28,953 nucleotides of DNA from Patescibacteria group bacterium (lineage in GTDB: Bacteria; Patescibacteriota; Minisyncoccia; Portnoybacterales; UBA2143). Position 1 is the first letter of the stretch, and each line of letters begins with the position of its first letter. The DNA is taken from positions 1 to 28,953 of the forward strand of contig JBDRKH010000016.1 in assembly GCA_043814195.1 (NCBI GenBank), read 5' to 3'. Below the pieces are notes generated by a model that ran no database searches, was not told the origin of the DNA, and worked only from the letters and a program-made list of their open reading frames with translations. The position numbers and the translations under genes are program-made. Of the stretch, positions 24,250 to 26,389 are shown in pieces.

Positions 24250-26389
24250 ATTCTTTTTCTTTAGTCTGATAACCACACTCTTTGTTGCTGCATTTAATCT
24301 TTTTGCTTTTGGTTTCCACTAGCAAAGAATTACACCGGGGGCATTTTTCTTGGATTGGTTTGTCCCATAAGGCGTATTTACATTCAGGAAATTGGGAGCA
24401 AGAATAAAAAGTTTTGCCTTTTTTGGTTTTTCTCTCAATGATTTCTCCTTTGCCGCATTGAGGACATTGAACTCCGGTTGAATTAATAATCGGTTCAGTA
24501 TATTTGCAATCAGGAAAACCGGGACAGGCATAAAATTTGCCGAACCGGCCTAATTTAATCACCAGATTTTTGCCGCATTGAGGGCATTTTTTATCGGTTG
24601 GCTCTTCTAGTTTTTTCTTTTTCACCTGTTCATATTTTTCATCCAGATTTTTCTGAAAAGGCTGATAAAAATCATTAAGAACATCCAGCCAGTTTTGCTT
24701 GCCGTCAGCGATTCGGTCCAAATCTTTTTCTAGATAAGCGGTAAATTTAATATCAACAATCTGGCTGAAGTTTTCTTTTAATAAATCAGTCACAATTAAG
24801 CCGATTTCCGAAGGGATAAATCTTTTTTGTTCATCTTTTCCCACATATCCTCGGTCCTGAATGGTGCTGATAATCGGGGCATAGGTTGAAGGCCGGCCAA
24901 TGCCGTATTCTTCCAGAGTTTTAACCAGGCTGGCTTCGTTATAGCGGGCCGGCCCTTCGGTAAAATGCTGTTCAGAAAGAAGTTTAATTAGTTTAAGGAT
25001 TTCTTGTTTAATTAAATCAGGCAAGATATTTTCCTTGATTTTACTTGGGTAGATTTTTAACCAGCCGTCAAACTTAATAATTGAGCCGGTTGACCGGAAA
25101 GTATAATTTCCGGCTTTGATATCAACGCTGGTTGCATCCAAAAGAGCTGGATTCATTTGGCAGGCCATAAACCGGCGCCAGATTAAATCATATAATTTAT
25201 ACTGATTCTTATCTAAAAATTGTTTGATTTTTTCCGGCTGGCGGCTGATTTGGGTAGGACGAACAGCCTCGTGGGCTTCTTGGGCGCTTTTAGCTTTAGT
25301 TTTATAAATTCTGGCTTGAGCTGGAAGATAATTTTTTCCAAATTGTTCTTTAATGAATTCCCGGGCTTTGGTTATGGCTTCTTGGGAAATATTTAAAGAA
25401 TCAGTCCGGTGATAAGTGATTAAACCAAAAGAACCTTTGGGGCCAAGTTCAATACCCTCATAAAGCTGTTGGGCGATTCTCATGGTTTGCTTGGCGGAAA
25501 AGCCTAATTTACGGGATGCTTCCTGCTGGAGGGTGCTGGTAGCAAAAGGCGGACTGGGTTGTTTTTGGACTTGTCTTTTTTTAATCTCGCTTACTTGATA
25601 TTGAGCGCCTTCTAAATCTTTTAATATCTGGTTAGCCCATTCTTTGTCCTTAACGCCTAATTTATTAATTGTTTTTTCGTCTTTTCTAATCAGCTTGGCA
25701 GTAAACTCATTATTGTCATTGCGAGGAGCCGAAGGCGACGTGGCAATCCCGTGTTCTCTACGAGATTGCTTCGCTTCGCTCGCAATGACAGTATTAGGGC
25801 GAAGTTGAGCCTCAATGCTCCAGTATTCTTCTGGTTTGAAGGCTTCTATTTCTCTTTCACGGTCAACAATCAATCGGACGGCGACTGACTGGACCCGGCC
25901 GGCCGAAAGACCCTTGACCACTTTTTTCCATAAAAAGGGCGAAAGCTTGTAGCCGACAATCCGGTCCAGGATTCGGCGGGCTTGCTGGGCATTAACCAAA
26001 TCCATATCAATCTGGCGGGGATTTTTAAGAGCTTGGTCAATCGCCTTTTTGGTGATTTCGTGGAAAACAATCCGCTGATAGTTTTTGATTTTGTCTGAAT
26101 CTAAAGTTTGAAGAATGTGCCAGGCAATCGCTTCGCCTTCTCTATCTTCGTCAGTGGCCAGGATAATTAACTTAGCTTTTTGGGCAACTTGCCTTAATTC
26201 TTTGACTATTTTTTTAGCTTTAACCAAAATAGTGTATTCGGGTTTAAAATCATGTTTAAGGTCAACCCCGAATTTTTTTTCCGGCAAATCGCGAATATGA
26301 CCATAAGATGATTTAACCGAATAATCGCGGCCTAAATATTTATTAATAGTCTTAGCTTTGGTTGGGCTTTCAACAATAACTAAATTCAT
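24248..26389 (-). CDS. topA: DNA topoisomerase I (type IA) with C-terminal zinc ribbons
   Basis: IVESPTKAKTI, ATDEDREGE, SAGRVQS, LITYHRTDS, QEAHEAVRPT, GIGRPSTY, repeated CxxC ribbons. Confidence 0.98.
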   Translation of the reverse strand: MNLVIVESPTKAKTINKYLGRDYSVKSSYGHIRDLPEKKFGVDLKHDFKPEYTILVKAKKIVKELRQVAQKAKLIILATDEDREGEAIAWHILQTLDSDKIKNYQRIVFHEITKKAIDQALKNPRQIDMDLVNAQQARRILDRIVGYKLSPFLWKKVVKGLSAGRVQSVAVRLIVDREREIEAFKPEEYWSIEAQLRPNTVIASEAKQSRREHGIATSPSAPRNDNNEFTAKLIRKDEKTINKLGVKDKEWANQILKDLEGAQYQVSEIKKRQVQKQPSPPFATSTLQQEASRKLGFSAKQTMRIAQQLYEGIELGPKGSFGLITYHRTDSLNISQEAITKAREFIKEQFGKNYLPAQARIYKTKAKSAQEAHEAVRPTQISRQPEKIKQFLDKNQYKLYDLIWRRFMACQMNPALLDATSVDIKAGNYTFRSTGSIIKFDGWLKIYPSKIKENILPDLIKQEILKLIKLLSEQHFTEGPARYNEASLVKTLEEYGIGRPSTYAPIISTIQDRGYVGKDEQKRFIPSEIGLIVTDLLKENFSQIVDIKFTAYLEKDLDRIADGKQNWLDVLNDFYQPFQKNLDEKYEQVKKKKLEEPTDKKCPQCGKNLVIKLGRFGKFYACPGFPDCKYTEPIINSTGVQCPQCGKGEIIERKTKKGKTFYSCSQFPECKYALWDKPIQEKCPRCNSLLVETKSKKIKCSNKECGYQTKEKE
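25714..25790. repeat. 77-bp REP/RPE-like palindrome inserted in frame in topA
   Basis: Perfect 12-bp terminal inverted repeat tgtcattgcgag/ctcgcaatgaca with an inner gcaatc/gattgc stem; encodes VIASEAKQSRREHGIATSPSAPRND. Confidence 0.9.

What the first reader, a model, noticed from the sequence alone, without database searches (positions are those of the whole stretch)
25714..25790. 77-bp palindromic element inserted in frame in topoisomerase I
Seen: perfect 12-bp terminal inverted repeats and inner stems, adding about 26 aa (VIASEAKQSRREHGIATSPSAPRND) between EEYWSIEAQL and EFTAKL, normally a short turn in TopA; the frame and all catalytic motifs are intact. Established: GTCATTGCGAG-type (CGTC-tagged) palindromes are a known repeat class, and Rickettsia palindromic elements insert into ORFs in this way. 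Inference: the same phenomenon in a probable CPR genome, in an essential enzyme.
Basis: partly seen in the sequence, partly recalled or inferred. Interest (0 to 1): 0.65.

Follow-up and report, generated by a model that had tools for sequence, protein, structure and literature searches.

The report
Hairpin repeat read through in TopA
A 77-base hairpin repeat of a known, bacteria-wide selfish class (a CGTC-tagged REP dimer, or Ssn-related motif pair) sits in frame in the only topoisomerase I gene of a tiny CPR-type bacterium, adds a floppy 25-residue surface loop, and does the same in six other core housekeeping genes, much as Rickettsia palindromic elements do.

Summary
Window 25714-25790 is a 77-bp palindrome with perfect 12-bp ends and a 10-bp inner stem. 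It lies in frame in topA (24248-26389, minus strand) and encodes residues 201-225. None of 28 relatives' TopA carries this peptide.

The element is an inverted dimer of CGTC-tagged REP arms (Di Nocera 2013), the class now called NTS/Ssn-related motifs (Chenal 2025). In two relatives a small GIY-YIG nuclease gene sits exactly between the two arms, so the 75-nt form is the gene-less version.

This 472-kb genome has about 10 full copies. Seven lie inside conserved genes: TopA, RpoB, RpoC, ValS, LepA, DprA and HolB. Six of the seven are read in one orientation and frame, which gives the most hydrophilic peptide of the four open frames. In solved homologues the peptide falls in alignment gaps. In an AlphaFold model it is the one long low-confidence stretch, at the tip of a beta-hairpin.

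The same TopA loop carries palindromes in four other relatives. One of them, in a non-sister genome, is at the identical site.

How the element moves, and whether it is translated, are inferred and not shown.

Verdict: a new member of a known kind. This scan has found the same class inside genes of other CPR genomes before.

The parts
25714..25790 (-). Whole element: an inverted (tags-outside, HH) dimer of CGTC-tagged REP / SRM-like arms, here with a TGTC tag. It is read on the minus strand as part of topA.
   Evidence: The family has 11 forward and 10 reverse hits in the genome, against 0 for the reversed-pattern control.
25715..25789 (-). 75-nt core, which encodes TopA residues 201-225 (VIASEAKQSRREHGIATSPSAPRND).
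   Evidence: pLDDT is about 40 for residues 201-225 only, between strands 188-198 and 229-236.
25714..25725 (.). Outer stem, left arm, with the tag (TGTCATTGCGAG).
25779..25790 (.). Outer stem, right arm (CTCGCAATGACA).
25743..25752 (.). Inner stem, 5' half on the plus strand (GCAATCCCGT). The GCAATC block is conserved; the distal bases covary across copies.
   Evidence: Covariation across 108 copies: 3.98 of 5 pairs against 3.16 +/- 0.08 for shuffled partners.
25760..25769 (.). Inner stem, 3' half on the plus strand (ACGAGATTGC).
25753..25759 (.). 7-nt central loop (the dimer spacer). In relatives G022 and G002 a GIY-YIG gene lies in the spacer between the two arms.
25728..25736 (.). Small side hairpin (GCC-GAA-GGC on the plus strand, GCC-TTC-GGC on the coding strand). 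Other copies have longer GC hairpins of unrelated sequence at this place.
24248..26389 (-). topA, the only topoisomerase I gene found in the genome (713 aa). It hosts the element in the first beta-hairpin turn of domain D2.

Best explanation
The 77-bp palindrome is a gene-less inverted dimer of CGTC-tagged REP arms, also known as NTS/Ssn-related-motif hairpins. Each arm has a YGTC tag, an AT-led hairpin (ATTGC...GCAAT) and a C-rich tail. Its full-length counterpart carries a roughly 90-aa single-domain GIY-YIG (Ssn-like) nuclease gene between the arms. Copies spread without target-site duplication, probably through single-stranded DNA (inferred). In a genome with almost no intergenic space, most copies land in genes. 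Selection then keeps only copies that preserve the frame, have no stop codon, give a hydrophilic disordered peptide, and fall in surface turns or linkers. In TopA the copy is most likely transcribed and translated as a 25-residue floppy extension of a beta-hairpin turn in domain D2, away from the catalytic motifs. It is tolerated, not useful.
For: Class: the arm matches the published CGTC-REP anatomy, with the tags outside as in an HH dimer, and it parallels the NTS consensus.

Nuclease link: in G022 and G002 an 85-95-aa GIY-YIG ORF (Pfam 8e-14) sits between the arms, with only 23-65 nt of spacer between each arm and the ORF.

Family: about 10 full and 2 partial copies in 472 kb. The 11-mer occurs in 15 of 36 family genomes, with 1 to 55 hits each. 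More than 119 stretches were found across many phyla.

No TSD in 161 of 174 copies; the base at -1 is C or T in 96%.

Structure is selected: the inner stem covaries and the side hairpin varies in sequence.

Selection filter: 7 of 10 full copies lie inside TopA, RpoB, RpoC, ValS, LepA, DprA or HolB. Six of these 7 have a length that is a multiple of 3 (p = 0.007). Six share one of the four open frames (p about 0.001), the most hydrophilic and near-neutral one.

Insertion sites: the peptide falls in gaps against solved TopA, LepA, RpoB, RpoC and ValRS. It is absent from 28 TopA orthologues. In the model, pLDDT is about 40 only at 201-225, at a hairpin tip.

Not an artefact: the same site and frame are occupied in an independent genome, G046.
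Against: There are no expression data, so translation is inferred from frame conservation alone. The arm does not match the published degenerate SRM search pattern, which has 0 hits in this genome. The three GIY-YIG genes of this genome are not flanked by this repeat, and no nuclease-bearing copy was found in the assembly (94.6% complete). Copy number does not track the presence of GIY-YIG genes in the family: G049 has 55 motif hits and no match to that query. Homology of these GIY-YIG proteins to Neisseria SsnA could not be tested, because no reference sequence was available. In relatives other frames, and lengths not divisible by 3, also occur inside genes, so the single frame is specific to this genome.
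Confidence: 0.8

Rival explanations
1. The element is a REPIN-like doublet mobilised in trans by a RAYT (REP-associated tyrosine transposase), not by a GIY-YIG nuclease.
For: This 472-kb genome keeps a 178-aa Y1 transposase-like gene with HUH and YxxxNP motifs (Pfam Y1_Tnp 1.3e-9; NCBIfam REP_Tyr_transpos 43 bits). All 7 family genomes with at least 7 motif hits have a Y1_Tnp match, against about half of the motif-free genomes. The absence of TSDs fits HUH enzymes.
Against: The Y1 gene is not flanked by the repeat, either here or in 10 of 11 other Y1 loci examined. The NCBIfam score is below the cut-off of 80. Known RAYT partners carry a GTAG tag, not CGTC. The GIY-YIG gene, not the Y1 gene, sits between the arms in two relatives. 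The genomes compared are related, so the co-occurrence count overstates the association.
Confidence: 0.1
2. The insert is not part of the mature protein: it is removed from the mRNA, or the ribosome bypasses the hairpin.
For: The mRNA would carry a -40 kcal/mol hairpin. There are no expression data.
Against: If the insert were removed or bypassed, neither length nor stop codons would matter. Yet 6 of 7 in-gene copies are multiples of 3, all are stop-free in the host frame, and six use the same benign frame. The frame is also kept in G046. No ribozyme or intron family matched. R. conorii proteins carrying RPE-1 are reported to be expressed.
Confidence: 0.04
3. The copies inside essential genes are functional and not merely tolerated. 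As Ssn target sites they modulate recombination of incoming single-stranded DNA at these loci, or they spread as alleles by a homing-like conversion.
For: NTS repeats with SsnA restrict transformation in Neisseria. The genome keeps DprA and a ComF-like gene. The TopA copy is closest to the G046 TopA copy (95% identity, against 89-93% for copies within this genome), although G004 and G012, which lack the insert, are closer kin of G046. Nucleotide identity between G000 and G046 peaks at 83-94% around the insert, against about 60-78% in most windows elsewhere.
Against: The identity peak is short and partly made up of the element itself and a conserved motif. Ancestral gain followed by two losses, or two independent hits, are not excluded. 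Identical peptides in unrelated proteins argue against a protein-level function. No cleavage or transformation data exist for this lineage.
Confidence: 0.1
4. The insert is an assembly or binning artefact: a repeat wrongly joined into topA.
For: The genome is a fragmented assembly of 69 contigs, and repeats can cause misjoins.
Against: Both junctions keep the reading frame of a single-copy essential gene. An independent genome has the same insert at the same codon. Six other genes on five contigs show the same pattern.
Confidence: 0.02

Closest known systems
CGTC-tagged REPs, HH dimers (Di Nocera, De Gregorio & Rocco 2013, BMC Genomics, PMC3733652). They include Neisseria dRS3 and R. conorii RPE-4 and RPE-6.
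   Same: The terminal CGTC/TGTC tag, an AT-led stem, a short C-rich tail and the tags-outside dimer that can fold as one long hairpin are all shared. So are the occurrence inside genes as dimers encoding 20-30 aa, often in DNA-transaction genes, and the wide spread in Alphaproteobacteria and Bacteroidetes, as in my scan.
   Different: The host is a CPR-type genome, a group not among the 5 phyla listed there. The hairpin stem is 5 bp plus a GCGAAGC mini-hairpin, not 8-9 bp with a 4-5-nt loop. Most copies here are intragenic, whereas that paper finds most REPs intergenic. The paper found no dedicated enzyme for CGTC REPs.
NTS / Ssn-related motifs with Ssn GIY-YIG single-strand DNA nucleases (Chenal et al. 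2025, Nat Commun, PMC11893778).
   Same: The motif order is CGTCATT, hairpin, AATC, then tail. A motif-nuclease-motif architecture is seen in relatives G022 and G002. The nuclease is a single-domain GIY-YIG protein under 150 aa, with Tyr/Tyr/Glu spacing within 2 residues of the SsnA sites Y6, Y17 and E64.
   Different: The arm fails the published degenerate SRM pattern. The main text of that paper does not mention intragenic in-frame copies or Patescibacteria. Cleavage and any role in transformation are untested here.
Rickettsia palindromic elements (Ogata et al. 2000, Science; reviewed in PMC10969869).
   Same: A selfish palindromic repeat is inserted in frame in many unrelated housekeeping genes of a reduced genome, at sites compatible with the fold, giving a conserved peptide.
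   Different: RPE-1 is about 150 bp and was not compared by sequence here. Only RPE-4 and RPE-6 are reported as CGTC REPs. The element here is 75-94 nt, and its class is pan-bacterial.
REP/REPIN doublets with RAYT transposases.
   Same: Both are hairpin doublets with no target-site duplication and a tagged end. A RAYT-like gene is present in this genome.
   Different: The tag is CGTC, not GTAG. The RAYT-like gene is not flanked by the repeat.
Classical MITEs (non-autonomous derivatives of DDE-transposase insertion sequences).
   Same: Both are small, have terminal inverted repeats, occur in many copies, and have a longer gene-bearing counterpart.
   Different: There are no target-site duplications. 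The gene-bearing form encodes a GIY-YIG nuclease, not a DDE transposase.

Membership tests
CGTC-tagged REP superfamily (Di Nocera 2013) | Unpaired terminal tag CGTC (TGTC or CCTC allowed) at one end of each unit | tested here: met
   The tag is TGTC at both ends of the TopA copy. Across 174 copies the base before GTC is C in 57% and T in 39%.
CGTC-tagged REP superfamily (Di Nocera 2013) | Short stem-loop whose stem starts with A-T pairs, followed by a short tail (consensus CCA) | tested here: inconclusive
   The stem ATTGC/GCAAT starts with AT. The tail is CCA in most copies from other phyla but CTC or CCC here. The stem is 5 bp plus a mini-hairpin, against the 8-9 bp with a 4-5-nt loop given in the paper. 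The paper does note odd loops in Bradyrhizobium CGTC-1.
CGTC-tagged REP superfamily (Di Nocera 2013) | Predominantly organised as HH dimers (tags outside) that can fold into one large hairpin | tested here: met
   The tags are outermost. The fold gives z -5.3 as DNA and -5.8 as RNA.
NTS / Ssn-related motif (Chenal 2025) | Match to the degenerate SRM search pattern HGTCWY...RNCYNB | tested here: not met
   The NTS consensus matches my implementation of the pattern, but the arm does not. The pattern has 0 hits in the genome.
NTS / Ssn-related motif (Chenal 2025) | The motif flanks a single-domain GIY-YIG (Ssn) gene on both sides | tested here: met
   This holds in relatives: G022:C13 (L218 2500-2941) and G002:C31 (L232 1191-1609). 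It does not hold for the three GIY-YIG genes of this genome.
NTS / Ssn-related motif (Chenal 2025) | The nuclease belongs to the Ssn clade (cd10448; blastp to N. meningitidis SsnA below 1e-10) | not testable with these tools
   No SsnA sequence or CDD model was available. Only Pfam GIY-YIG (8e-14), a size of 85-95 aa and the catalytic spacing could be checked. The best PDB match is UPF0213 1zg2, E 0.0013.
NTS / Ssn-related motif (Chenal 2025) | The nuclease cuts single-stranded DNA next to the motif | not testable with these tools
   This needs a biochemical assay.
Rickettsia palindromic elements | In-frame insertion in many unrelated genes, giving a conserved peptide at fold-compatible sites | tested here: met
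   Seven genes carry copies, six of them with one shared peptide, at gaps or loops in solved homologues.
Rickettsia palindromic elements | Sequence membership in an RPE family | not tested
   No RPE sequences were at hand. The link rests on the statement that RPE-4 and RPE-6 are CGTC-4 and CGTC-1.
MITE | Target-site duplication flanking the terminal inverted repeats | tested here: not met
   161 of 174 copies have no adjacent direct repeat, and the rest fit chance.
REPIN/RAYT system | RAYT gene flanked by the repeat; GTAG tag | tested here: not met
   The tag is CGTC.

The most novel reading that the evidence does not exclude
The insertion alleles move between lineages as units. The TopA copy of this genome and that of the non-sister genome G046 share site, frame, a private substitution and a short tract of raised flanking identity. 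This could be the trace of a homing-like or transformation-linked conversion, promoted by the Ssn-type single-strand nuclease acting on the hairpin arms. If so, these repeats would be a gene-conversion drive that targets permissive loops of essential genes in CPR bacteria.
Probability: 0.12. Interest if true: 0.75.

Novelty: new member of a known kind. Interest (0 to 1): 0.4.

Why it matters
The work shows that the published CGTC-REP / Ssn-motif class extends to ultra-small CPR-type genomes. There, with little intergenic room, it lives mainly inside the reading frames of the core machinery: RNA polymerase beta and beta', topoisomerase I, ValRS, EF4, DprA and the clamp-loader delta'. That has three practical consequences.

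- Annotation and phylogenomics: these 25-residue blocks are false homology between unrelated proteins. In one search a TopA query hit RpoB, RpoC, ValS and LepA through the insert alone.
- Protein engineering: the inserts map naturally permissive loops in essential enzymes. The TopA D2 hairpin turn has been hit by palindromes in at least five genomes (G000, G046, G049, G021, G024).
- Biology of Ssn nucleases: a nuclease gene sitting in the dimer spacer, together with gene-less dimers, gives a testable autonomous/non-autonomous pair. Di Nocera et al. found no dedicated enzyme for this class.

None of this is a new kind of element.

Tried and rejected
- Rfam: nothing above noise for the element.
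- Literature searches with the exact DNA motifs or element peptides returned only unrelated primer hits.
- tblastn of this genome's three GIY-YIG proteins against 80 loci from other phyla found no hit. I first dropped the nuclease idea for that reason. It was restored after the Ssn paper, and after the family-wide search found nuclease genes between the arms in G002 and G022.
- Clustering of neighbouring ORFs in those 80 loci gave no recurrent transposase, only an orthologous ABC-transporter context in Bradyrhizobium-like genomes.
- RAYT as the partner: the gene is present but not flanked by the repeat.
- Target-site duplications were tested at three boundary offsets and none was found.
- The published SRM pattern has no match in this genome.
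- An exact-sequence look-up of this TopA in public assemblies found nothing on record.
- Supplementary tables of the Ssn paper are not held.
- A universal reading frame is rejected. Relatives use several frames, and lengths not divisible by 3, inside genes.
- I could not define the exact inserted length or empty-site sequence, because the flanking loop residues differ between genomes.
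Full report
OBSERVATION. The plus strand reads TGTCATTGCGAG at 25714-25725 and CTCGCAATGACA at 25779-25790. This is a perfect 12-bp inverted repeat, and it extends to 15 nt at 93%. An inner 10-bp stem (25743-25752 with 25760-25769, one mismatch) closes a 7-nt loop. The 11-mer core occurs twice in the window against 0.25 expected. The strand folds at -24.6 kcal/mol as DNA and -40.2 kcal/mol as RNA, with z-scores of -5.3 and -5.8. The element lies inside the 713-aa topA ORF (24248-26389, minus strand). The 75-nt core encodes residues 201-225. 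The catalytic motifs align with E. coli TopA. The alignment to 4RUL breaks between E. coli residues 228 and 252, at the start of domain D2.

IT IS AN INSERTION. I fetched TopA from 40 related genomes and aligned 28 full genes. None has this peptide. In 23 of them the beta-hairpin turn is only about 7-13 residues, of the type EAKLK-K-QAQ-Q-EEF. An AlphaFold2 model built on a 30-sequence alignment has mean pLDDT 83.9. Its only long low-confidence segment is 201-225 (pLDDT about 40), between strands 188-198 and 229-236, so the insert extends a hairpin tip.

THE FAMILY IN THIS GENOME. The window is contig 16 of a 472-kb, 39% GC, 69-contig genome that is 94.6% complete. The 11-mer occurs 11 times forward and 10 times reverse; a reversed control pattern occurs 0 times. 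This corresponds to about 10 full elements (75-94 nt) and 2 partial ones.
- Seven full copies lie inside long conserved ORFs: TopA, RpoB, RpoC, ValRS, LepA/EF4, DprA and the DNA polymerase III delta' subunit. Partial copies lie in RpoC and a ComF-like gene.
- Six of the seven have a length that is a multiple of 3 (five of 75 nt and one of 84 nt). The probability of at least 6 of 7 by chance is 0.007.
- Those six are read in the same orientation and phase, giving VIAS-(E/K/G)-AKQSR...GIA(A/T)SPSA(P/S)RND. Four of the six frames of the element are open, so the chance of this is about 0.001.
- The frame used is the most hydrophilic (GRAVY -1.0), is near neutral, has no Cys, and is the richest in disorder-promoting residues.
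- Against solved homologues the peptide falls in gaps: LepA 2YWE, RpoB 7YE1, RpoC 9N9P and ValRS 1GAX. In DprA and delta' it lies at or just beyond the end of a Pfam domain.
- The three copies outside long ORFs are 78, 79 and 85 nt long.
This is the pattern expected if insertions are filtered by selection on a translated product. It is the main argument that the insert is translated and not removed.

WHAT THE ELEMENT IS. The hits came from Bradyrhizobium, Sphingomonadales, Mucilaginibacter, Pedobacter, Flavobacterium, Chloroflexi, Planctomycetota, Microcoleus, Coxiellaceae, Rickettsiales and Patescibacteria/Berkelbacteria.
- All copies share the plan: tag, GTCATTGCGAG, spacer, CGAAGCAATCC(A/C)G, loop, then the mirror image.
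- The distal 5 bp of the inner stem covary: 3.98 of 5 paired against 3.16 +/- 0.08 for shuffled partners, with 0 of 1000 shuffles as high.
- One arm carries a GC hairpin of variable sequence.
- There are no target-site duplications: 161 of 174 copies have none.
- The base before GTC is C or T in 96% of copies.
- Di Nocera et al. 2013 define CGTC-tagged REPs. These have a CGTC or TGTC tag, an AT-led stem and a CCA tail, and are mostly HH dimers with the tags outside. The class equals dRS3 in Neisseria and RPE-4 and RPE-6 in R. conorii. Intragenic dimers encode 20-30 aa, and no dedicated transposase was found.
- Chenal et al. 2025 show that the same class (NTS = CGTCATTCCCGCG...GGGAATCYRG, generalised as SRM) flanks, and is cut as single-stranded DNA by, small GIY-YIG nucleases named Ssn.
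I then tested the link here. A family-wide search with one of this genome's GIY-YIG proteins found small GIY-YIG ORFs in 23 of 36 genomes. In G022:C13 and G002:C31 the ORF lies between a left arm and a right arm of this very repeat, where the 7-nt loop sits in TopA, with 23-65 nt of spacer on either side of the ORF (Pfam GIY-YIG 8e-14). So the 75-nt element is the gene-less form of an arm-nuclease-arm unit.
Three caveats apply. The arm fails the published degenerate SRM pattern. This genome's own three GIY-YIG genes are not flanked by the repeat; the two on contig 36 lie among tRNA genes. Homology to SsnA itself could not be checked.

DISTRIBUTION AND DYNAMICS. Within the taxonomic family the 11-mer is present in 15 of 36 genomes, with 1 to 55 hits per genome. 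That patchiness is as expected for a mobile or expanding repeat. In relatives, copies also sit inside genes:
- RecG, TsaE, PheS, DnaG and YchF in G002;
- FolD (twice), TatD, an FtsQ-like protein, a glycosyltransferase and TopA in G049;
- an ArnT-like membrane protein in G004 and G022.
These copies use several frames and lengths.

The TopA turn is a recurrent target or a permissive site.
- G046 has a 75-nt copy at the identical codon and in the same frame.
- G049 has an 89-nt copy in the other orientation.
- G021 has an ATTCT-stem variant of the same class.
- G024 has an unrelated GC-rich palindrome.
The G000 and G046 TopA copies are 95% identical, closer than any pair involving the TopA copy within G000 (89-93%), and they share a private substitution. 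In a loop-masked TopA tree, G046 groups with G012 (support 99/96) and then with G004, both of which lack the insert, before G000 joins. Nucleotide identity between G000 and G046 rises to 83-94% around the insert, against about 60-78% in most other windows. Lateral transfer of a short tract, an ancestral gain with two losses, or two independent hits could each explain this. I cannot decide among them.

MECHANISM, SHOWN AND INFERRED.
- Shown: the anatomy, the family, the insertion relative to orthologues, frame preservation, the loop location, and a nuclease gene between the arms in relatives.
- Inferred: that an Ssn-type nuclease recognises the arms; that spread goes through single-stranded DNA; that the insert is translated; and that it is neutral or slightly deleterious.
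A RAYT-like Y1 gene is present in this genome but is not flanked by the repeat, so it is a weaker candidate partner.

COMPARISON AND VERDICT. The element class and the phenomenon of in-frame REP dimers are both published. New here are the host group, the share of copies inside core genes, the single benign frame, the repeated invasion of one TopA turn, and the direct view of nuclease-bearing and gene-less forms side by side. This scan has reported the same class inside genes of other CPR genomes several times. I treated those notes as leads and tested the claims on this DNA.

Noticed in passing
G000 contig C10:16476-17012 (locus L175 1408-1944, minus strand): A 178-aa IS200-like Y1 transposase / RAYT-like gene with HUH and YxxxNP motifs, in a 472-kb genome. 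Pfam Y1_Tnp scores 1.3e-9. NCBIfam REP_Tyr_transpos scores 43 bits, below its cut-off. It is not flanked by the GTCATTGCGAG repeat. Y1_Tnp matches occur in 22 of 36 genomes of the family.
   Followed up: partly
G000 contig C36:213-464 and 855-1151; C47:10816-11076: Three small single-domain GIY-YIG ORFs (84-99 aa). The two on C36 lie between tRNA genes. They are 33-39% identical to the nuclease genes that sit between repeat arms in G002 and G022.
   Followed up: partly
G000 contigs C1:2080, C10:11805, C29:1467, C42:671; C20:1761 and C20:3839: Other variants of the same tagged-hairpin class: GTCATTCTGAG...AGAATC units, and two Neisseria-like GTCATTCCC...GGGAATC units. The genome therefore holds several arm types.
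   Followed up: no
window 25427-25456 (TopA residues 312-321): A 9-10-residue insertion (GIELGPKGSF) between LYE and G-ITY(326)HRTDS, just before the catalytic tyrosine. E. coli TopA lacks it, but the alignment consensus of the relatives keeps an insert of about this length there, so it is a lineage feature and not a repeat copy.
   Followed up: partly
L038 (G024 TopA loop) and L034 (G038 TopA loop): G024 carries a different GC-rich palindrome (GGGGGCAGCC...GGCTGCCCCC, -29.7 kcal/mol against -11.4 for shuffles) at the same TopA turn. G038 carries an A-rich, non-palindromic insert there.
   Followed up: partly
G002:C31 (L232 1500-1650, minus strand): Upstream of the nuclease gene there are two full left arms plus a degenerate third copy (GTCGTTGCGAG) in tandem, suggesting arm amplification next to the gene-bearing unit.
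   Followed up: no
G004 (L203) and G022 (L216), ArnT-like membrane glycosyltransferase: Orthologous genes in two genera carry element copies, plus an adjacent partial copy, at the same site but in different frames. This is another repeatedly hit site.
   Followed up: no
G000 C34:3650-3690 (RpoC) and C47:8984-9030 (ComF-like): Half or decayed copies are also read through, as VIARSRRRRGND in RpoC and VIASEAKQSRGK in the ComF-like protein. Old insertions therefore erode in place.
   Followed up: partly
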